Below, piece after piece: positions 2,651-57,173 of a stretch of 64,000 nucleotides of DNA. The notes beneath the pieces were generated by a model, which saw only the letters and a list, made by a program, of their open reading frames with translations, was not told the origin of the DNA and did no database searches. Position 1 is the first letter of the stretch. The number at the start of each line of letters is the position of its first letter. The DNA comes from Octopus vulgaris (lineage: Eukaryota), in assembly GCA_951406725.2 (NCBI GenBank), contig OX597827.1:57784001-57848000 (forward strand). The letters run 5' to 3'. Position numbers and translations under genes: made by a program.

Positions 2651-3120
2651 TTATACATACATGTATATATGCATGTATATGTGTGTTTATATGATTGATT
2701 GATTCTAGTTTCAGCTCACGAGCTGTGGCCATGCTGGGGCACCGCCATTTATATACATACACATGCACACATATACACACACAGGCAAATGTGTGTATAT
2801 GTGTGTGCGTGAGTGGATGTATGTATGCGAGAATGGTCAAAATGTTTGTTTCACAACAAATGGGGTATATATATATATATATATATGTACATACATGTAT
2901 ATATGCATGTATATGTGTGTTTATATGATTGATTGATTCTAGTTTCAGTCCAGTGTGATGAAGCCTGAATGCACACATATATCATGTGATATGTGGTGCT
3001 AGTGCGAATACTAGTCTTAAACTGACTTGTTATTGCCAGGAAAACTATAAAAAATGGGAAGAGGTTGGGATCTGATCCCTGTTGTGTTCTGAGTTCATAT
3101 CCCACCAAGGTCAGACTCAA

Positions 3121-3208
3121 ATGGCCAGGCCATTTGGGTCTGATGAGTCATCTATACACCTAAGTGCTTTATAGGCACGAAACCAATGGTCACTCTCTCA
3201 CTGGCCAT
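3121..3208 (+). ncRNA. Type I hammerhead ribozyme (extended, canonical core)
   Basis: GGGT-CTGATGA-stem II-GAAA-CC-AAT-GG-TC-ACTC. Proximal stem I is GGGT/ACTC and distal stem I is ATGGCCAG/CTGGCCAT. Predicted GUC cleavage after 3191. Confidence 0.75.
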
Positions 3209-3230
3209 AACAAACAATCTTCTTAGTATT

Positions 3231-3450
3231 CTTTTATTCCTTTATTTGTTTCAGTCATTTGACCTCGGCCATGCTGGAGCACTTCCTTTAGTCAAGCAAA
3301 TCGACCCCAGGACTTATTCTTTGTAAGCCTAGTACTTATTCTATCGGTCTCTTTTGCCGAACCGCTAGGGACATAAACACAGCAGCATCGGTTGTCAAGC
3401 GATGTTGGGGAGACAAATACAGACACACAAACATGTACACACACACATAT

Positions 3451-9843: not shown

Positions 9844-9882
<39 letters not shown>

Positions 9883-10170
9883 TTTATTTTAAGCAGCAGA
9901 AAATTCAACAAAATCTGTTACTCTGAGTTTCTCGTTGCTGTCTGATGAACGGCAACGAGAAACTCAGAGTAACAGATTTTGTTGAATTTTCTGCTGCTTA
10001 AAATAAAGCATATTACTCTACCACTGTGTGTGTATGTTTGTGTGCCTATGTTTGTCCCCCTAGCATTGCTTAGCGGTTCGGCAAAAGAGACTGATAGAAT
10101 AAGTACTGGGCTTACAAAGAATAAGTCCCGGGGTCGATTTGCTCGACTAAAAGGCATGGCCGCAGTCAAA
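9692..10170 (+). mobile_element. SINE family A, interrupted by a fold-back insertion
   Basis: Family A head and tail flank the 9882-10026 insert, which sits in the internal (TA)n. Confidence 0.85.
9882..10008 (+). ncRNA. Fold-back PLE-type insertion with minimal hammerhead motif (9938-9975)
   Basis: 60-bp arms with CTGATGA as the loop. The HHR reads CTGT-CTGATGA-aCGgcaaCGa-GAAA-CTCAGAG-TA-ACAG. Confidence 0.65.
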
Positions 10171-12622: not shown

Positions 12623-14075
12623 CGGGAAGCTTTATGAAAATAGACAAAAGACGAAGGCAGGTTTACGGAAATAAACAAAAGACGAAGGCAGGTGGAATAC
12701 AAACAAACAATTGTATTAGTATGGCGCTCAGAAAATATAAATAAAACAAGTCTTTAACGTTTCGAGCCTACGCTCTTCAACAGAAAGATACACAGAGAAA
12801 AACCACAGAAAGAAGGAGAGAAGAAAAATATGCGTGCAGAAGCTAGCGAATCAACATGGCGATCTGATTTCGGCCAGAAGTCAAAGATCAAACATGAGAC
12901 GCAAGAGCGAAATAGGGGAGATAATAGGGTTGAATGACCTCGCTCCAACATAAGAGTGTGTGTGTATGAGAAGAGTGTGTGTGTGTGTATGAGAGAGTAT
13001 TAGTGCGTATGAGAGGTCTGGACGTGTGTATGTATGTATGATGTGATGTGTAAAGTCGTATGGTGTAGTGTAGAGAGAGGAGATGAGGGAAGAGGGGGAG
13101 GTGAGGGGGAGAAAGAAAGGGGAGAAGAGGAGGGGGAAGGGGAAGGGGGAGAAGGAAGGAGAGGAGAGGAGGAGGGGAGAGGAGGAGGGAGGATAGACGG
13201 AGAGGGGGAGAGAGAGAAGGGGAGTGAGGGATCAGAGAGAAAGAGGGAAGGGGAAGAGGGAAGAAGGAGGGAGGGAGAAAGAGGGAAGAAGGGAAGAGGA
13301 GTAGGGGTGAAAGGATGAAGGACTGAAGAGAAGTATGGGTCGGGGGGGAGGTTAGATGAGGAGGGGGGAGGGGGGTTAGATGAGGAGGGGGAGAGTTGAG
13401 ACCAAATGGCGTATAACAGCGAAGAGAGAAGATTAATTCCTGTTCACGGCGCAAACGGGAATCCGGATGGCCTCTGTGTAAGGACAAACCGAACACAGAC
13501 AGGTGTTGCAAGGAGTGACCGGTGGAGCGGAAATGGCGTGAGACCGGTGTGTCGTTCGCAAGGCGGATGTCACGAAGGTGTTCCGCGAACCGGTCAGCCA
13601 AGCGGCGTCCCGTTTGTCCGATGTACAGGGAATGGCAGAGAGAGCAAGAGACGCAATAGATAATATTGCTGGAGGTGCAGGTGAAGGAGTTGATGATGCG
13701 AAAGGGTCGATGATGGGTGCCAGTGAGGAGGGTGGTGTTGGAGAGGTAAGGGCAAGTGCGGCAACGTGGGCGGGAGCAGGGGAACGAGCCAGGTTGGGAG
13801 GTAGGGTCAGGGAAGGAGCTATGGACCAAAAGGTCTCGAAGGTTATGGGCTCGTTTGAAAGAGGGGAGGGGTCGGTTAGGGAAGAGGTGTGAAGTGGACG
13901 GGTCGGACTGGAGATGACGGAAAGCTCGAAGAATGGTGCGTTGGAGAGGTAGGGTCGTGGGGTGGTAAGTGAGGGGAAAAGGGAGGCGGGAGACTACAGG
14001 GCGGGTTCGGGGAGAGAGAGCAGATACACGGTCCACAGAACGTGTTCTGGCAAGGGCGGTGTGGATAGTGGTGAG
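12621..14075 (-). mobile_element. 5'-truncated Penelope-like element (Neptune-type): GIY-YIG endonuclease, purine-rich spacer and pseudo-LTR
   Basis: ORF 12888-14036 contains the Cys linker CSRPRCRTC, then IIYCVSCSLCHSLYIGQTGRRLADRFAEH...RREQELIFSL..PFGLN. An HHR motif lies in the 3' pLTR and the element is flanked by microsatellites. Confidence 0.9.
12751..12788 (-). ncRNA. Minimal hammerhead-like motif (A6U core) in the PLE pLTR
   Basis: Minus strand TCTTT-CTGTTGA-A-GAGC-GTAG-GCTC-GAAA-CG-TT-AAAGA. Confidence 0.6.
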
Positions 14076-14080
14076 GTGGT

Positions 14081-14372
14081 ATATATGTGTGTGTGTGTGT
14101 GTGTGTATGTCGTATATGTATATATAGGTCGTATATGTACATATATGCGTATCTGCTTATGTGTGTGTGTTTGTCCCCCGCCAACGCTTGACAACCGATG
14201 CTGGTGTGTTTATGTCCCCGTAACTTATCGGTTTGGCGAAAGAGACTGATAAAATAAGTACTAGGCTCACAAAGAATAAGTCCTGTGGTCGATTTCTTCG
14301 ACTAAAACCCTTTAAGGCGGTGCTCCAGCATGGCCGTAGTCACACGACTGAAACAAGTTAAAGAATAGAAGA
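14081..14372 (+). mobile_element. SINE family A, 3' half
   Basis: GTTTGTCCCCC...GGCGGTGCTCCAGCATGGCC...GACTGAAACAAG. Confidence 0.8.
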
Positions 14373-19660: not shown

Positions 19661-21048
19661 CTTTTTTTTTTTTTTTGGTATTTCGAGTTTCAAATCAGGT
19701 CGAAACAGTATAATGAACAAGACTGAGAATATCAATTTAAGGTTTTTAATTCATTTTATTTTATTTTATTTTTCGTTGAGCTTTCAGATTGATCAAATGG
19801 AAATGATTGTATAAACAGAAACGAGAGAAAGAGAGAAAGAAAGAGAGAGTGAGTTAAAGATAGACAGACAGACACATAGTGTGAGGATCTAAAGCTGGAA
19901 TTCAATTTACGAAAATACATTAAAAAAATGATAATAAAATATTCAAAAATAATTTGAAAAATTTTAAATTTAAAATTTAAATATAAAAACCGAATTTAAT
20001 TTTTTTTTTAAAGAAACTGCATTAAGAATATAGTTTGAATTTTTATTTCATTTTTTTTTTCTCTTTTATGGATTCGAGTGTCATCCCGATCTTAAAACCA
20101 TTTTATTTTAATGAATTTGAAACAGGCGGTGAGCTCGCAAAATCATTAGCATGCCTGACAAAACTGCTTGGCTCTTTACGTTCTGAGTTCAAGTCCCGCC
20201 GATCTATTCTTTCTAGGTTGATAAAAAAAAAAATCACCTTTAATACAAAGCCTGAAATTTTTCGAGGTGGAGCTAGGAAATTACATTGATGCCAGGGCTT
20301 AACTGGTGATTTATTAAATTTGAAATATCGAACGATATTAACTGGTGGGGTGGGGGGTGGAGAAAAAGAAAGAAAATTTTAATCAAATTCCCAGCCCTGA
20401 TACGTGGAGTGAAGCAACATTTAACTAATTTTAGCTTCGGAAACCAAACTGGCTTGTGGAACACATTGGAAACACAAGATTAAAGAAAAAGGTCAGCACT
20501 TCATTGTGGATTTGGATGCGATCAAATTAAGTAAAATAACTGCAGAAGTCCTCATCTGCCGATCACTCTCTCTCTCTCTCTCTCTCGCTCTCACGCTCTT
20601 TCTCTCCCTCTCTTCCTCCCTCTCAATCCATAGTATTTTTACTAACGTCAGAATGGAAGAGTTAGACCGCAAAAAAGGGGAAGTAATTCATTGAAAGATA
20701 ACCTGAAAAAGTACAGAGGATAAATCTTCTGACCACCGGACAGCAAGAACGAAAATATACCGCTGCTCATGATCATGTCATTTAATGTATTTTTTCTTTG
20801 AAGATGTATAATTTTTCTTCAACGCACCTACCTACCCATCTACATACATACATACATTATAAGCTGTGTATTTTCATCATATTTTCAATTGTGTAATAAA
20901 ATCCACAGTTTATCTATAAAGGATTAGTTTTTTCGATATATCGATCTAAGTTTTATATTACAGATGAAAAGCGAAAAGAAAAATAAAATGCTTTATGGAA
21001 CTCACTTACAACCCTTTGGAAAACAGATTTTCAGGGAGCATACACACA

Positions 21049-21123
<75 letters not shown>

Positions 21124-21669
21124 TCAAACACTCAACAAAGACGTCTTACTACTTCATTATCCAAATGTATCTGGATTCTAAAGATAATAATGCATATATT
21201 TCTGAAATCAGAGTAATTCTTTAAAGCTATTGATATATGTTCGTCCAGTCTCATTAGCGAGCTTGTTGCTCTTGTTTTTTTGTTTGTTTTTTTGTCTCAA
21301 ATTAGTGCTCATAGCATCGAATAAAATTTTACAGTGAAAATCTCTGCAGTTAATTCATTTCTCATTTTTGAGAGTAGGTTTTAATTCTCGTCGCAAACAT
21401 CGAATTGGGGCAAGACATTTTGTCACAGCTGACATTTAGCTTATATATTGGTTTCAAATTCTGGTACAAGGCCAGAAATTTCGGGGGTGGGAAGTAAGTC
21501 AATCACATCGACCCCAAAAGGATGAAAGGCAAAGTTTGAACCCAGAACATAAAGACAGACGAAATGCAGCTAAGCATTTTGTCCGGCGTACTATCGATTC
21601 CGCCAGCTCGCCGCCTTATTTATTTCATATATTAACACATGTGTCATAACCTATCCTGCTAACGCTAAC

Positions 21670-25152: not shown

Positions 25153-26615
25153 TTTTTTTTTTTTTTTTTTGTTATGTTCAATGCGCTGATCACACGCTAC
25201 ACACGTTCCTTCCAAGCACTGCTGTAAACACGGAAGTAAGCTAGAATGTTCAAATTTAGTACGCATGCACAGTAGAGTTCAAGGTCAATCTGTGCCAAGC
25301 GGCTTTACGCTGCGTGCTTTAGCTTCGTTACTATGGCAACAGTCCGGATACTTACTGATCAGACCACGTGGTTCATAAACATGAAAGAATCGTCTTAAAT
25401 TTTGGCACAACGCCAGCAATTTTGGCAGAAGTTGTTAGCAGATTACGTCGACCTCAGTGAAGATTTGCAAGACATTCCAAAAAGTCTTCATCTGAGATAC
25501 TTATGTGAATAGATGCAAATAACTGAATGTATGTATCGGCAGTTCAACCAACACGCCAATCCAATCACATATTTACAAACACCGGGAACTCTGTTAACTC
25601 AAAATGCCGTGTCGCTTTATTAGCAACCGACTTGAACACTCATAAGAACTGAAACTAAACTCACATATATACGTAGGTGTCTAATAGGTCTTTGTCCGTA
25701 GTGAGTGAAGCTTTGGTTACATCTTAAGAATGTATCAAGCCAACACACAATTATAAACTTACATTCATACAAACACATACATACATACATACATACATAC
25801 ATACATACATACATACATACAAGCACGCACATACATAGATGCATATATACACAAACATAATGTACTTTGCATACTTTTATCTTATTTTTAAGTGTACAAT
25901 AAAATTCTCAACCGTCATCAATTTAAGGGTTGCATTGCAACTACAAAACGAAACAAAAAAGTTTTATAGGGATCAATTAAAAAGTTCTTTATATAAACCC
26001 ATAACATTTGTATGCCTTCATACATTCAGAAAGACGTTTTACTACTTCATTCTCCAAATATATCTGGTATCTTGTAATATCTCCCATCATATTTTTAATT
26101 GCATACAGTCATTAATGGTGTCTGTCTATCGACCAATGGATTCTCTCACAAATGAAAAGCAAAACAAAAACGCTTTAGAGAACCCACTTGTAATCCTTAA
26201 AAAGAAAACATTTGTATACATTCTGTCTCTCATAGACGTGTTAATACTTCATTGTCTAAATATATCTGGAGCCTAAAGGATAATGATAATAATAATAATA
26301 ATTATATAGTCGACTGCTCCATCACAGGTCACACATTTCCCTACATCAACGGTCTCAGCAAGTGCAATTTTTGTCTTCCAGAGAAGTTTAACATTCTTTG
26401 ACAACCATTTGCATTTTTTTTAACAAAAGACTTGAATTGATAAATTCTTGCAGAGTTTTCGATTGCTGTTTATTAAAAAATTTTCAACTGCCAGAGTTAG
26501 CTCAAAATTTTATTTTCTACATCATGGATATTCAATATCCTAAAATATGGTCCATATTTCAAAAAACATTCATACACTCGTCAATGTTGAGATTTATCTT
26601 GACTATTGAAAAAAA

Positions 26616-29146: not shown

Positions 29147-30414
29147 AAAAAGAGGAAAGAAAAAGAGGAGGGTGGTGGAAATATGGGAAGAAGAGAAAAA
29201 AGTGGGGTTAAGGACCGGGTGAGAATGCAGTTCTAATAGGAGGAGTTAGAAAGAGAAGAAGAGGTGGAGAATTGCGTGCATGTAAAGGAGGGGGGTCAGT
29301 GTAGGGTTATGGATATAGGAAGAATGGTGTGAGCAGTGAGGTGCAGGTGGTTAAAGTGATGGGGAGACGAGAAAGCAGAAAAGGCAGAGAGGAAGGGAAC
29401 GAAAGGCTTACAAAATATATTTAAAAATCACGTGGATTTATATTTAAAAATCACGTGAAAACAGGGAGAGTGGCTACAGGGAGAAAGGTTCATGTCCAGA
29501 GAAGAGGTTGTAAAGTCAATATAATGAAATAGGTAGGAATGTGTTGAAACGCAGAGTAGATTGGAACGCGTGGGTTAAAAGAAAATTATACATAAAGTAC
29601 GAGGCGAGGGTGAGTTGATTGTAAAAAGGATGTAAAAAGGAATACTATAAAAGTTAGTTTACACGGGCTGTGTGAAAGAATTGATGAAATCCAATAGAGA
29701 GGGTAAAGTTTCCAGAAAGTGGAGGTAATCCAATGCTGTAAGACATACAGAAATGGCTTAACGATCGGTTTTACAAAAGCACGTGTTGCGTGGTGGGTGT
29801 TCGGTGATGAAACAGAGATGATAACGGAAGGAAATTGTAACGGAGTAAGAGAGCGAAGTCAGGGGAGATAATAGTGTGTTAGCGTGATTGCGTGCATGTT
29901 TGTGTGTGTGAGTGTGTGCACGTGCGAGATTGTGGCTATGTGCGTGCGTGTATGTCTGTGTGTGTGTGCGTGTATGTGTCTGTGTGCGTGGGCACGTGTT
30001 AAATGTGTGTGCTTGCGTGGTAGTACGTAGGCGTGAGTGCCCTTGCGCATATCCGCCGATAACAACATAAGCGACAATAACTGCAAAAGCGGTGGCGGCG
30101 GCGGCGGCGGCGGCGGCGGCAGTTACACCGATAACGCATTGAGCAGCAGCGGTAGCTACTGCAGCAATAATAACAGCTACAACAGCAGCAACAGCAATGC
30201 GTCCGGCAGTGGCAGCAACAGCAGCCTTGTTAGCGGTAACTGTGAAACCAGCATCGCGTCCATCAGCAACAGCAACAACAACAGTACCACCAGCAGCAGC
30301 ACCAGTGACAGCAGTAGTAACCACAGCAGCAACAGCAGCACCACAAGCAACGGGTCCGGCAGTGACAATAACATCAGCAGCGATAACGACGGTAACAACA
30401 GCAGCTGTAACATT

Positions 30415-30932
30415 GCCAGTACAAGGGCGCAAACCAGGAAATATGTTGGATCTAAAGGCGGCCCATTCAAGCATATCTTAGCAATCACAGGTCCGCCTTT
30501 ATGATACCGGAGAGGCACAACATCACGTTTCTGGTCAGCTATGTTTGGCATTTAAAAGAGGAGCGTATACCATACATAATTAAATGAAGGCTCCTAGAAT
30601 AACCAGGGACGTACCTCAACGGGAGCAAACAATGTAAGCTTTGCTTGCAATAATCTTGAAAAACTCACTTGACTCGGGGACCTTTGTAAACTCCGAAAAA
30701 GAGATGTTTAGCCAGCGCTTCCATCAGAGGAAATTCATGCTGGAAACATGGAATGTTTGCCGATCAGGAAAGTGCTGCCATCTTCAGCGTAACTGAAACC
30801 GATCTAAAGTTTTGTTAGAAGAGCTTCATCCGGGATTTTTTGTTAACAAAATTAACTGATCATGACGTTTTCCTGCCTCCAGTTGTATAGAGGTTACGTG
30901 CCTCCGGTCATTTGGATCTGATGAGTCACCTT
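30415..30932 (+). mobile_element. Degenerate PLE 3' end: GIY-YIG C-terminus plus pLTR with a truncated HHR
   Basis: KYVGSKGGPFKH..., VSYVWHLKEERIPYIIK, YLNGSKQCKLCL and VNSEKEMFSQRFHQRKF, followed by GGTCATTTGGATCTGATGAGTCA, which matches the 3121 HHR. Confidence 0.75.
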
Positions 30933-37929: not shown

Positions 37930-39183
37930 TATGGATTTGTCCCTAACTCCAGCTGCAGTGATCAGCTTGTCGAGTTCCTTGAGGACATTACTCAGATCAC
38001 TGACAGTGGCTCATGGGTGGATGTTGTCTACCTTGACTTTGCTAAGGCTTTCAACTCTGTGCCACACAAAAGGCTTATGGTGAAACTCTCTGCAATGGGT
38101 GTGAGGGATGACCTTTTTAACTGGTTGAAGTCCTTCATTCTCAACCGAAAGGAGGTAGTCACAGTTCTAGGACAGCATTCTACACCATATGAGATGTCAT
38201 CGGGTGTACCACAGGGATCTGTCCTTGGTCCCCTCTTGTTTGTGGCATACATTAATGATATAGATGCAAATTTAAAGAATGCCACAGTATTAAAATATGC
38301 AGACGACATCAAGCTGTACCTTGAAATCAAGAGGACAGATCCTGTTGTCTACAGCTCTTTCCTGCAATCAGACCTGGACACAATGCAGCAATGGATCACA
38401 GACTGGCAACTGAAACTGGCTGTGGACAAGTGTACCACCATGCATTTTGGGAGAAAAAACCCTGCGTCCACATACTCCCTCCACAACACTGATATCAAGA
38501 AATCCTCTTGCGAGCGTGACCTAGGCATCACTGTCAGCAGTGATTTGCGTTGGACAAAGCATATCTCTAAAATTGTCAAGAAGGCCGAGGGTGTCTTGGC
38601 ATCACTCAGCAAGACTTTTGTTAGCCGCTCTCCAGCCATCTATTTAAAACTGTATACAGCTATGGTACGACCACACTTGGAATTCGCATCATCAGTTTGG
38701 AACCCCTATCTTGCTCAGAACATTGACCTCCTGGAATCTGTTCAGAGACGTGCAACCAAACGCATACCCTCCATCAGACACCTACCATATTCTGAGCGCC
38801 TTGTTTCCCTGGGCATGGATTCACTGAAGCTCCGGCGTCTGGCGACGGACTTGGTAAACGCCCACAAAGTTGTCAACCACCTCACCAATAACAACACTGA
38901 TCACCTTTTTGATCTCCATGTGTCTAACACACGTGGACATGCCTACAAAGTCAGAAAACAACACAGCTCCCATGACTTTCGGAAACATTACTTCACACTC
39001 AGAGTTGCTGAAGCGTGGAATAAACTGCCTGCGTCAGTTGTTGACTGCCATGACACTGCATCCTTTAAGGCCCTCATGCTTTCCGAAATCCGTCGAAACT
39101 ACACCTGATTATATATACACTTTCGATGAGTTGTAGTGCACCTGAGCACTGTACACAATGTTTATTATTATTATTATTATTAT
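37930..39183 (+). mobile_element. 5'-truncated CR1-clade LINE: reverse transcriptase C-terminal ORF (stop at 39108), short 3' UTR, (TTA)n tail
   Basis: [60 protein letters not shown]...WNKLP. About 390 codons without a stop. Confidence 0.95.
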
Positions 39184-43483: not shown

Positions 43484-45110
43484 TTAGGGGACACAAGGTT
43501 CACAAATGAATGTAACGTCATCAATTTCAACCCCAGCACATTTTTCATGTGCCCATTCCCTGCACAGCTGGCATTCAATCCGATTTTTTGTCGGGAGTTC
43601 TTCACAGAAAATGCAATGGAAGTCCTTATCGTTTTTGATGTGAAGGCTGGTGTCTTCAGCAAACTTTCAGGGGTCTTGGATTTGTGACCTTTTCTCCTTG
43701 CTGTTGGTTTGTTGATTTTTCATGGCTTTAGCTGAGAGAGAGTCTTTAAAGAGTAAACTGGTGAGGCACTCTGAAGTCTGAGCTCTTCTTTATCTTGTAG
43801 CCTGAGTTCGTGGAACAGGCGACAAGAAAACAAAAGAGATTCTTTATTGGGATGAATTGTGTAGGCCTACCTCTATGTCTTCTTGACTTTTGCATCCATC
43901 TGCACCTTTGACAGATATCTCATAAGACTGGGGGTGGGGTGCAGGATCTACTTATGGCTGTTTCTGTGATGGTGCTGGACTTTCCTTAAGATCAGCAATT
44001 TCAGTGACTTCTACCGAAATGAAATCGACATCACCAAACATCCGGATTGTATGGCCAGATTCCAGTGCAACGAAATCCACTGCAGGCATTCCGAACTGTT
44101 GCAACTCGTATGAAGACAGAAACTTTGAAGTCATCTACCCGTTGACTTGGGTAATTGATGATCCACTTGTCAAGTTCCTGGTGATAAAAGTTTTTGAGGG
44201 GCGCAAAAAAGGTCCTGCCTAAAGGTTGAAGCTTTTGGCTGATATGAGGTGGAATTGATACCGTGACTACGCCATGTTTGCGATTACTACTCACACACAC
44301 ACACCATCTCTTGCTTCCTCTGTCCTCTTTCATGATATATGTTTATAGGGAAAGAACATTCCGAACTGTTGCAGCTCGTATGAAGACAGAAACTTTGAAG
44401 TCATCTACCCGTTGACTTGGGTAATTGATGATCCACTTGTCAAGTTCCTGGTGATAAAAGTTTTTGAGGGGCGCAAAAAAGGTCCTGCCTGAAGGTTGAA
44501 ACTTTTGGCTGATATGAGGTGGAATTGATACCATGACTACGCCATGTTTGCGATTACTACTCACACACACACACCATCTCTTGCTTCCTCTGTCCTCTTT
44601 CATGACATATGTTTTTGGGGAAAGAACATTCCGAACTGTTGCAGCTCGTATGAAGACAGAAACTTTGAAGTGATCTACCCGCTGACCTGGGTAATTGATG
44701 ATCCACTTGTCAAGTTCCTGGTGATAAAAGTTTTTGAGGGGCGCAAAAAAGGTCCTGCCTAAAGGTTGAAGCTTTTGGCTGATATGAGGCGGAATTGATA
44801 CCATGACTACGCCATGTTTGCGAGCAAGCTCAATTGAATCCACGTTAATGTGGCTGATATGATTGTCCAAAAAGGAAGAGAACTTTTCTCTCAACAGATG
44901 GATTTGTATGTTGAATGAAATGGCGTGGCCACTTAGAAAATGTTCTCCCATCAGTCCATCCATTTTCGCTTCCATGAGCAACTGAACCTTCTGGCGCTCG
45001 ATGAAGCAGTGGGTTGGCTACGTGCTTCCTCTTGAAGATAAATGCAGGCGGTATGAAATGCCCGGTGACGCTCATTGCATACACAGCTGTCGCAGTTCGT
45101 CCTGTGTTGA
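43484..45110 (-). pseudogene. pogo/Tigger-like DDE_1 transposase with C-terminal PHD-like finger (frameshifted)
   Basis: GHFIPPAFIFKRK, SENGWTD, LDNHISH, PPHISQKLQPL, SGFRCTGIWPYNP and terminal CIFCEE...IECQLCREWAHEKCAG...FICEPC*. Confidence 0.9.
44087..44822. repeat. 270-bp tandem repeat (2.7 units) inside the transposase
   Basis: CATTCCGAACTGTTGC starts at 44087, 44357 and 44627. Confidence 0.95.
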
Positions 45111-45625
45111 TGTTGAAATTTCAATGACGGAACCTTGGATCTAGTTCAGAAACCGGTACTTTCTCTATTGGCAAGAAATCTTGAAATAAACTGAATAATG
45201 ACATACATACATATACACACAACGCATATATACATACATGCATACATACATACACAACACATACATACATGCGTTCACACATAACACATACATACATACA
45301 TACACACACAACACATACATACATGCATACACACACAACACATATATACATGCATACACACATATACATACATACAGACAGACAGACACAACGCATACAT
45401 ACATGCATACATTCATATACACACACACAAACATACATACATACATACATACATATATGCATGCATGCATACGTACATACATACATATATGTGTGTGCGT
45501 ATACATAAACACACGCATACACATATAGGCGCACGCACGCACACAATTGTGCAATGCGTGGGCCTTTGTAGAATGCCTCAACCTCGAATGTCACCATATG
45601 GTCCAATCAATAACGTAGTACAAGA

Positions 45626-54309: not shown

Positions 54310-54900
54310 AATTATTTAATTCTTCTGATTTTTCCCATAATCATCTGAGGAGTATTTCTTCTCAATGTATAGTCGAAAAATTTTTCGTGATATTCTTTCA
54401 CAGTGCCTGCGTAGATCCCTATCGCCGCATGTAACCAAATAAAGGGCAACATATATTGGTGAACTGTTGTTCCCATCTTGATGCTGAACTCTTGTCGGTA
54501 AAATAAACAAACTGTTATTTACCATAATCAAATTAATAGCTCCTAGAATAATGCTCTTGGGACATTTATTTTCAATTATTTCTATAAGTACGTCTAACCT
54601 TCTTCGATTGCTAGATCATGAAGGAAATGAGAGTAAAGATTTGTAACTTCAAAAGAAATTGGGACTGAGATTATTCCAGTTTTTTTTTTCTTTTCATAAA
54701 CAACTGAGCTATTATAGTGTATTCTATATAAAGTTATTGATTTGATATATGTAAAGTTTGTGAAGTTTTATCTAAGAATTTTCGTATTATATAGCTTTCA
54801 CACGTAAGTCCTGCAACAATGGTTCGCAGAATCAGTACTATAGATTTTTCGAATCTTGAGAATATAGAAGTACTTTTATTAGTTGGGGGAAAAAACGGGT
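54310..54900 (-). pseudogene. Degenerate Penelope-like RT
   Basis: LRTIVAGLTCESYIIRKFLD and FYRQEFSIKMGT resemble PLE RT motifs (LRPIVAGP.C.T..LS.FLD; Y.Q..G.AMGT). Confidence 0.6.
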
Positions 54901-55444: not shown

Positions 55445-56849
55445 TAAAGAATTCCCAAACAGGAAATATTTCCCTAATCGAGTAACTGAATAATTATGAG
55501 GCAATCCAACGATTTTGTACGTATATCATGATTTAAAAATCCCGTGAAGTTAGTTTATATGAATAGATTTTTAAGATTGTAACGGCAGAGATTGATTAGG
55601 TACACATTATTATGATGAAATGTTGGAGTCAGTAGTTGTGACGATAAAATTTTGTTGTTATGACGGCATACTGTAGAATGTGAAAGATGGACAATGCATT
55701 AAGGAAATATTTATTTACCGTTACGTTACAATTGCCTTGCCTCGACGGGCAGGTTATGATAAATCCAAAAGCATGCGAAGTAAAGTTTGTGTTTGTGTCC
55801 TCTTCAGATATATTTAAAATGTCTTCGCCTTTCTCTCTGAGTTTTGAGTTTATTTCAAAAACTAACAAGTAAATATAAATGAGCTTTATATCAAATACAG
55901 CTCTTGACCTGTTTGCATATCTACGCGTAGGTTTACATGTATTATACCATACCTTGATACTGTGGACTGGGTTCCGCATTATTAAATAAAATTATTTTAT
56001 TATATTATTTTATAATATGCAGATTAGTGGATCCAGTTCTCCGAAGCTACTGGATTTGATGCGTATATGAAGCGAACTGGCTACCGGTTTCTCTGGGTTT
56101 GGGCAAGTAATGTAGACCACTGATGAGTCCCCAATAAGGGTGGAAAATCCTTCGTCATTACCAAATAGACAAATTTGATATGTGACATGTATGTAACTAT
56201 CTATCTATCGTGGTCAGAATATTTCCGACAGGTGTTCAGTCAACCGAACAACCAGATCCAGAGAACGAGTGTGTAAGCGGCTGAGTATTCCTCAGACGCG
56301 TCTACTTTTAATGTAATTCTCAGGCTGAACCTTTGAATTATAGGTAAGATTCACCTGACGAGCTTCCATACCGTTTCTGTCTACTCGAGTTCACTGTCAT
56401 GGTATGGGTCAACTCAAGGCTATAGGAAATGACACTTGCCGAAGATGCTACGCATGCGAAATGGACTTCTTCACCATTCGGCTATATGGCGCATGTATGT
56501 ATTTATGTATGTACGAGAGCGTGCGCGAGAGTGTGTGCACGCATGCGCGCGAGTATCGCCGACATATATCGGCAAAGGATGTAAACATCGGCGATGAGAA
56601 AAACGGAAAATTGGTGCTTCTGCAACGAAGTCCCTTGCTACACTTGTTCTACGCCGAACTTCAGGCACTTCCTTGTCCTTCTCTCCTACCAGAAAGTGAA
56701 CCAGTAATTGTTCAGTCGCTGACTTGTTATCAACGACACTGTTGTTGATGAATTGCAATACTAAGATAAATAATAGTTAGTTCGATAAAAGTATATCACA
56801 TGCGTATATCATATGTGTAGCCCCTTGTGGGCAATAAAGAAATAAAAAA

Positions 56850-57173
56850 AAGCATGATATCGCTTCTGCACCCGCCCTATTCGTCAGATTTAGCATCTGC
56901 GGACTTCCATCTCTTCTCCAAAATAAAAATGCAGCTCAAAGGTCACCGTTTTAACACCAGTGTCGAGATCCAGGGCGAATCGCAGAAAGTCCTCGACTCA
57001 CTTACGGAAAACGGCTTCAAGGCCGGATTCCAAAAGTGGCAGGAACGCTGGGACCGGGGTATTGCTGCGCAAGGTGACTATTTCGAAGGAGATAATGCTA
57101 AAACTTAGGTAAATAAGTTTGTTTTTTTTTTATTAAACATATTAGCCCTGGAATTTTTTTATACCATCTCGTA
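56850..57173 (+). mobile_element. Mariner transposase C-terminus plus 3' TIR
   Basis: HPPYSSDLASADFHLFSKIKMQLKGHRF...FQKWQERWDRGIAAQGDYFEGD, ending ...ATCTCGTA. Confidence 0.9.

What the first reader, a model, noticed from the sequence alone, without database searches (positions are those of the whole stretch)
3121..3208. Extended canonical type I hammerhead ribozyme
Seen: intact CUGAUGA/GAAA/GUC core, a 3-bp stem III with a 3-nt loop, a long stem II, and stem I with an internal loop closed by 8 bp (ATGGCCAG/CTGGCCAT). Established: this architecture allows the loop-loop tertiary contacts of efficient natural HHRs, unlike minimal PLE HHRs. A truncated homologue at 30905-30930 sits just downstream of a PLE GIY-YIG remnant, tying the family to a PLE (inference). 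It could cleave any + strand transcript passing through it.
Basis: partly seen in the sequence, partly recalled or inferred. Interest (0 to 1): 0.7.

Follow-up and report, generated by a model that had tools for sequence, protein, structure and literature searches.

The report
Penelope transposon end with blocked hammerhead
This is the short leftover end of a common jumping gene of a known kind; it carries an intact self-cutting RNA core, but an inverted copy of its own start, likely made during insertion, is predicted to fold over that core and keep it from cutting host RNA.

Summary
The type I hammerhead core is real (CUGAUGA 3140-3146, GAAA 3179-3182, GUC 3189-3191) and beyond chance. It lies in the 3'-terminal 96 bases (3128-3223) of a dispersed repeat family: 497 contigs of one run lay on it, ending in (TA)n, some in inverted pairs. 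The family's upstream flank matches 30875-30905, which follows a decayed GIY-YIG endonuclease, so the Penelope-like (PLE) link holds. The 'extended canonical, efficient' reading does not. Helix I/II sizes (4 and 8-9 bp) and the palindromic helix III fit PLE dimer-type hammerheads; Rfam HH9 scores 16.3 bits against a cut-off of 52; no tandem partner exists in the window. Cleavage was not tested. Verdict: new member of a known kind, probably inactive in place. The scan has noted PLE hammerheads and two-armed insertions elsewhere in this genome.

The parts
3128..3223 (+). 5'-truncated, 3'-complete end (pLTR/3' UTR) of a Penelope-like element family; holds the hammerhead
   Evidence: Family pieces start 3126-3134 (24 of 28 shown) and end 3212-3223; loose ends beyond 3211-3223 run into TA-rich sequence
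3140..3146 (+). Hammerhead core strand CUGAUGA (C3-A9)
3147..3178 (+). Helix II: here 2 bp + 2x1 loop + 6 bp; with the family's majority letters 1 bp + bulged U + 8 bp; competing hairpin 3164-3178 in this copy
   Evidence: pair tables and folds; letter shares
3179..3191 (+). GAAA core strand, short palindromic helix III (3182-3190) and GUC triplet; predicted cut after C3191
   Evidence: monomer hairpin +0.4, self-duplex -8.2 kcal/mol
3136..3195 (+). Proximal helix I, 4 bp (3136-3139 with 3192-3195)
3111..3126 (-). Inverted arm: reverse complement of 3128-3143 (15 of 16), 1-nt spacer; forms a -22.7 kcal/mol hairpin over helix I and C3-A6; its outer bases overlap the flanking repeat
   Evidence: junction present unchanged in contigs of three runs (records 9, 18, 25)
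3121..3208 (+).
   Evidence: 3121-3125 not covered by family pieces
3082..3117 (.). Fragment of a high-copy repeat (SINE-like; label recalled) on the left of the insertion, broken off at the inverted arm
   Evidence: blastn to 1538-1569 and six other window copies; depth rise at 3080-3113
3227..3420 (.). High-copy repeat (SINE-like; label recalled) on the right of the insertion
30414..30757 (+). Decayed C-terminal GIY-YIG endonuclease of a PLE (stops and frameshifts)
   Evidence: 152 phmmer hits, best E 2.8e-12; 3 of 14 hits scanned carry a sub-cut-off Pfam GIY-YIG match; profile of 150 hits matches 30414-30665 at 2.8e-20
30875..30931 (+). 3' UTR and 5' half of the same hammerhead family, broken off after the start of helix II
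   Evidence: matches the family's loose-end letters before 3129

Best explanation
The motif is the hammerhead in the last 96 bases of a dispersed repeat family that is likely the end repeat of an endonuclease-bearing Penelope-like retrotransposon, and at this site a 16-base inverted copy of its own 5' edge, likely left by the insertion reaction, is predicted to pair with helix I and the first four core bases so that the ribozyme would not cut transcripts running through. Shown: core, family membership, family limits, (TA)n beyond the 3' end, inverted pairs among family copies, homology of the family's upstream flank to sequence about 120-150 bases behind a GIY-YIG remnant, the inverted arm. 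Inferred: reverse transcription began near the element's 3' end and stopped at about 3128; the other cut target strand annealed by a few bases to the element RNA near 3137-3143 and was extended over the same short stretch (or the cDNA folded back), giving the arm. In the source element the ribozyme likely worked as PLE hammerheads do, as a dimer through the palindromic helix III between tandem end repeats, perhaps protein-assisted, cutting about 33 bases before the element's end. This solo copy has no partner in the window.
For: Family: 497 contigs laid in X2 on 3114-3226; 24 of 28 family pieces shown start at 3126-3134 (the same loci recur across runs). Loose ends before 3129 (16 contigs, agreement 0.63) match 30875-30905; those behind 3211-3223 end in TA-rich sequence. 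Seven opposite-strand joints inside the motif, the inverted arrangement described for PLEs (PMC8557442; PMC3846280). Endonuclease homology. With the majority letters at 3151, 3159, 3176, 3177, 3199, 3202 (54-95% of summed depth) helix II and a distal helix I pair better than in this copy. CpG-type loss at C11.1 (22-32%) and G12 (20-30%) across the family shows most copies are not held to an active core. Hairpin P 0.997-1.0 in all 6 prefixes folded; cost of the hammerhead fold rises from 10.3 to 18.5 kcal/mol when the arm is included. Long helix II, short helix I, a bulge and palindromic helix III are described PLE traits with low activity (PMC4209133); a PLE protein cuts and extends both target strands, and its hammerhead needs protein and is dispensable for insertion in vitro (PMC11167929).
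Against: No full element with RT, EN and this hammerhead was seen; the EN link rests on one window locus. One X2 contig (record 14) matches 3131-3222 with 1 other letter and 1 gap but other flanks, so this copy's minority letters are a small subfamily, not private decay, and may have their own workable fold (5-bp distal helix, U10.2-A11.2). A 16-bp inverted repeat of this kind arose 2 times in 12 shuffled windows, so only its position at the junction argues for an insertion origin. One X1 record aligns back to 3110, with 9 gap letters. Folding ignores tertiary and Mg2+ stabilisation and had no positive control. No cleavage data.
Confidence: 0.75

Rival explanations
1. Solo, truncated copy of a non-autonomous retrozyme-type repeat derived from the PLE end (tandem non-coding units, circular RNA), mobilised by PLE enzymes.
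For: Retrozymes derive from pLTRs and leave many monomers (bioRxiv 10.64898/2026.07.22.740005); earlier notes report 492-535-nt hammerhead units with long helix II in this genome (unchecked); hundreds of contigs carry the motif.
Confidence: 0.12
2. One reading: an efficient monomeric, extended hammerhead that cuts + strand host transcripts, possibly kept by the host.
For: Core intact; 8-bp or 5-bp distal helix possible; weak HH9 match with the same distal GGCC helix; locus unchanged over 3084-3202 in runs of three organism labels; a near-identical second copy exists (record 14); small runs guessed or possibly RNA hold the locus unchanged (records 1, 23).
Against: Inverted arm sequesters the core; helix sizes differ from the canonical 6/4 bp; HH9 score 16.3 of 52; identity across labels extends equally into the flanking repeat, so it shows close kinship, not selection; no host exon found among 70 open frames scanned in 1-16 kb.
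Confidence: 0.08
3. The element reading is right but the inverted arm is a later template-switch mutation or chance, not a product of insertion.
For: Such repeats occur about 0.17 times per shuffled window; the arm is only 16 bases and does not reach the element's 3' end, unlike the typical inverted copy.
Against: Its centre coincides with the 5' truncation point and its outer end with the break in the flanking repeat.
Confidence: 0.15

Closest known systems
Type I hammerheads of metazoan Penelope-like elements (Cervera and de la Pena 2014, PMC4209133; parts 1-2 of 4 read, supplements not seen)
   Same: Type I topology, long helix II (7-8 bp there, 8-9 here), short proximal helix I (4-5 bp), G10.1-C11.1, palindromic short helix III, mostly solo truncated copies, place near the element's end.
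   Different: Helix III is present (as in the Drosophila virilis and shrimp variants rather than the barest min-HHR); the unpaired base follows G10.1 instead of preceding it; the family seems to close helix I with a further 7 bp beyond a 3x2 loop.
C-terminal EN+ PLEs, Neptune/Nematis group (Craig et al. 2021, PMC8557442; passages read, figures not seen)
   Same: GIY-YIG endonuclease at the 3' end followed by a hammerhead; inverted copies at insertions; TA-rich sequence at the ends; relatives carry a Cys cluster before the YVG/YIG motif.
   Different: No RT seen; clade name Nematis is recalled from the look of the endonuclease, not tested; the inverted arm here is only 16 bases and starts internally.
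Canonical type I hammerheads of animal retrozymes and Rfam HH9 (PMC7229834 passages; RF02275)
   Same: Core, type I topology, internal loop in helix I, distal GGCC helix aligns to HH9.
   Different: Proximal helix I three pairs shorter than HH9's, helix II much longer, score 16.3 of 52 bits, no tandem array.

Membership tests
Type I hammerhead ribozyme | Conserved core CUGANGA / GAAA / NUH with G10.1-C11.1 | tested here: met
Type I hammerhead ribozyme | Three helices can form around the core, helix I open | tested here: met
   pair tables; better with family majority letters
Type I hammerhead ribozyme | Active fold is accessible in genomic context | tested here: not met
   predicted only: P(helix I) about 1e-9 with 3111-3126 present
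Type I hammerhead ribozyme | Self-cleavage after C17 | not testable with these tools
   needs an assay
Canonical (tertiary-stabilised) metazoan type I HHR / Rfam HH9 | Helix I 6 bp and helix II 4 bp with interacting loops; Rfam gathering score | tested here: not met
   4 and 8-9 bp; 16.3 of 52 bits; sizes from PMC4209133
EN+ Penelope-like element end repeat | Hammerhead downstream of a GIY-YIG endonuclease | tested here: met
   one locus: 30414-30757 then 30906-30931, tied to the family by loose ends
EN+ Penelope-like element end repeat | Dispersed copies with fixed 3' end, inverted arrangements, TA-rich neighbours | tested here: met
EN+ Penelope-like element end repeat | Telomerase-like RT in the same ORF; tandem pLTRs; tail and target-site duplication | not testable with these tools
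   no genome held; contig letters not returned; no duplication recognised at this site
Nematis clade | RT phylogeny; linker Zn-finger and CCHH motif | tested here: inconclusive
   Cys cluster in relatives but lost from the window remnant; clade name recalled
Non-LTR retrozyme | Tandem non-coding units each with a hammerhead | tested here: not met
   none in the window; genome-wide not testable
Non-LTR retrozyme | Circular RNA | not testable with these tools
   only contigs were available

The most novel reading that the evidence does not exclude
This PLE family carries a hammerhead with both a long bulged helix II and a closed, extended helix I, a build between minimal PLE motifs and canonical retrozyme motifs that may use an undescribed helix I-II contact and cut as a monomer; and the inverted arms made when both target strands prime on the element RNA act as built-in antisense safety catches, so that insertions surviving in transcribed DNA are those whose ribozyme is folded shut (both 3111-3143 and 9875-10015 in this window look so).
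Probability: 0.12. Interest if true: 0.5.

Novelty: new member of a known kind. Interest (0 to 1): 0.18.

Why it matters
As read here it is ordinary: one of many PLE end fragments with a hammerhead, a class described in 2014. Its value is as a caution (a locus-specific inverted arm mimics an 'extended helix I') and as a small example of a junction where a second, internally primed strand may be recorded. If inverted arms systematically silence PLE hammerheads in read-through RNA, that would explain how genomes tolerate very many such cores, and it is testable by counting. Searches for hammerhead + Penelope + Octopus, hammerhead ribozyme + cephalopod and Penelope-like + twin priming + inverted listed no paper on this family or on that idea; the library lacks most subscription papers and I saw no supplements or figures, where similar motifs may be drawn.

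Tried and rejected
No genome is held for the window, so family data come only from contigs laid on 3000-3270 and 3114-3226. Metagenome pattern scan gave one bacterial chance match with no hammerhead context. Pfam did not recognise the 30400-30776 frames, the word-index protein search found nothing and PDB sequences gave 0 matches; the full phmmer search did. A second inverted arm at 3006-3039 was considered and rejected (170 of 2000 shuffles reach its score). No hammerhead of this family follows the other endonuclease remnants at 25942-26502, 21031-21183 or 13400-13900. No RNA holder was listed as such; X8 and X10 hold the locus unchanged and X8's contig bridges 3191/3192, but their kind is unknown or guessed and contigs show no strand or ends, so this is not used as evidence on expression or cleavage. 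Host gene: 0 of 70 open frames scanned from 1-16 kb hit Pfam (70 of the 270 listed for the window). The loose descriptor with 1000-base shuffle blocks underestimates chance in this microsatellite-rich DNA and was redone with 100-base blocks. Summed contig depth was not used as a copy number. Lunse et al. 2017 is not held and is known only through PMC6765202. The ESM Atlas gave no result for the endonuclease remnant, so that comparison is open.

Full report
Observation. The window is microsatellite- and repeat-rich animal DNA (octopus-like; label recalled and taken from earlier notes). At 3140-3191 there is a complete type I hammerhead core with G10.1-C11.1 and a GUC triplet. Helix III is A15.1-U16.1 plus two C-G pairs and a 3-nt loop; the nine bases are palindromic, unstable as a hairpin (+0.4 kcal/mol) and stable as a self-duplex (-8.2). 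Proximal helix I has 4 bp. A strict descriptor finds 2 sites in the window against 0.013 per shuffled window (4 of 300 shuffles with a hit). Rfam lists no hammerhead among the matches shown for the window or for 3040-3300 and a weak HH9 match for 3118-3226 alone (16.3 bits, cut-off 52).

3111-3126 is the reverse complement of 3128-3143 (15 of 16 bases, 1-nt spacer). The hairpin is -22.7 kcal/mol and pairs away the 5' strand of helix I and C3-U4-G5-A6. In six prefixes starting at 3080 its pairs have probability 0.997-1.0, so it is predicted to form before the rest of the ribozyme is made. The cost of the hammerhead fold is 10.3 kcal/mol for an RNA starting at 3128 and 18.5 for one starting at 3111. 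The first figure is uncalibrated, as no known hammerhead was folded as a control; the rise is an internal comparison. The junction is not an assembly error: contigs of three runs carry 3084-3202 or more unchanged (records 9, 18, 25).

The family. No genome was held, so I laid public contigs. On 3114-3226, 497 contigs of run X2 were laid. Of the 32 longest pieces shown, 4 are this locus and 28 are other copies; 24 of the 28 start at 3126-3134, one reaches 3110 with 9 gap letters, three start further in (the same loci recur between runs). Ends fall at 3212-3223, and loose letters beyond run through a short fixed end into TA-rich sequence. Seven joints join family sequence on opposite strands, the head-to-head layout known for PLEs (PMC8557442, passages; PMC3846280, passages).

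Family structure. At six positions the window letter is the minority: 3151 (C 74-78%), 3159 (G 84%), 3176 (T 89-95%), 3177 (G 78-88%), 3199 (G 87-93%), 3202 (C 54-64%) of summed depth in four runs. With the majority letters helix II becomes G-C, a bulged U, and 8 further pairs, and 3126-3132 can pair with 3198-3204 when read with the letters of the 30904-30910 copy; in this copy two of those helix II pairs and three of those seven distal pairs are mismatched. Linkage between positions cannot be read from the table. C11.1 and G12 form a CpG and are lost in 22-32% and 20-30% of depth; G12 is the catalytic base (established knowledge, recalled), so much of the family is decaying. Against a simple 'private decay' reading: X2 record 14 matches 3131-3222 with one other letter and one gap but has other flanks, so this copy belongs to a small, young-looking subfamily, which can form a 5-bp distal helix and a U10.2-A11.2 pair but also the competing hairpin 3164-3178.

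PLE link. The loose letters before 3129 (16 contigs, agreement 0.63) match window 30875-30905, directly upstream of the half-hammerhead at 30906-30931. Upstream of that lies a broken frame that Pfam misses but phmmer ties to 152 proteins (best E 2.8e-12); 3 of 14 scanned have sub-cut-off GIY-YIG matches, several show a Cys cluster then YVG/YIG, and a profile of 150 hits matches 30414-30665 at 2.8e-20 with a weak tail to 30757. The order endonuclease, short UTR, hammerhead, end is that of C-terminal EN+ PLEs. The clade name Nematis is recalled, not tested; no RT was seen.

Mechanism. Inferred: reverse transcription from near the element's 3' end stopped at about 3128. The left flank is a high-copy repeat whose match runs to 3113-3117, overlapping the outer arm, so 3 to 7 bases of the arm can be target microhomology and the remaining 9 to 13 a templated copy. 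That fits priming by the second target strand inside the RNA, in line with a PLE protein that cuts and extends both strands (PMC11167929, passages), or a fold-back of the cDNA (self-priming proposed in PMC3846280). Such a repeat arose 2 times in 12 shuffled windows, so the argument rests on its position. In the source element the ribozyme likely acted as a dimer between tandem end repeats (PMC4209133 parts 1-2 of 4; PMC6765202 passages); PLE hammerheads are slow, one needs protein and is dispensable for insertion in vitro. A 2-bp helix III does allow some monomer cleavage in retrozymes that keep loop contacts (22% in an hour for an axolotl motif; PMC7229834 passages), so the short helix alone does not rule activity out; the inverted arm is the main argument. 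No second complete copy is in the window.

Comparison and verdict. It works like, and by the testable features belongs to, the hammerheads of PLE end repeats. It fails the size and score tests for canonical loop-loop type I motifs (6-bp helix I, 4-bp helix II; tertiary contacts reviewed in PMC6155905, passages). A retrozyme derivative is possible (bioRxiv 10.64898/2026.07.22.740005, part 1 of 5 and passages) but no tandem was seen. Earlier notes on other DNA of this genome report abundant PLE hammerheads and two-armed insertions (unchecked); none covers this family by sequence. Searches listed no description of this family; supplements and figures were not seen. New member of a known kind; interest 0.18.

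Noticed in passing
window 9875-10015: Near-perfect palindrome with arms of about 67 bases and CTGATGA as its central loop, next to (TA)n; the right arm carries GAAA and a palindromic helix III-like stretch. Looks like a head-to-head pair of ends of another PLE family, with the hammerhead folded shut.
   Followed up: partly
window 54340-54392 (+): Second site passing the strict type I descriptor: 5-bp helix I, G10.1-C11.1, A/T palindromic helix III, but almost no helix II.
   Followed up: partly
window 56112-56150 (+), 56289-56295 (-), 56355-56361 (+): Three CTGANGA cores within 250 bases; the first is followed by a possible degenerate helix II and GAAA. Possibly remnants of another hammerhead-bearing repeat.
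   Followed up: no
window 30037-30410 (+): Asn/Ser/Gly-rich trinucleotide stretch directly before the endonuclease remnant; the two best protein relatives (P0001, P0002) also have low-complexity stretches there, recalling the Asn-rich inserts of Adineta Penelopes.
   Followed up: partly
window 25942-26502 (+) and 21031-21183 (+): Further decayed endonuclease remnants matching the same profile (E 1.5e-14 and 0.01), with no hammerhead of this family behind them.
   Followed up: partly
window 13400-14100 (-): Open GIY-YIG frame with a CxxC linker (Neptune-like; label recalled), Pfam E 0.0084, followed by a purine/pyrimidine tract.
   Followed up: no
window 37990-39108 (+): Open 370-aa reverse transcriptase C-terminal frame (RVT_1, E 2e-26), LINE-like, behind a (TA)n tract.
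   Followed up: no
run X2 record 14: An 839-base contig holds a copy of 3131-3222 with only one other letter and one gap but different flanks: a sibling insertion of this variant.
   Followed up: no
window 3175-3178: The two-base difference from the family majority equals the reverse complement of 3164-3167 and perfects the competing hairpin; it may be one templated event.
   Followed up: no
runs X8 and X11: Their deepest family contig has G12 changed to A and an internal deletion before 3163, so the best-represented copy there has a dead core; run type is unknown.
   Followed up: no
window 43926-45120 (-), 56821-57108 (+): Frames resembling DDE/mariner-type transposase fragments (by eye; label recalled); the first is internally repeated.
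   Followed up: no
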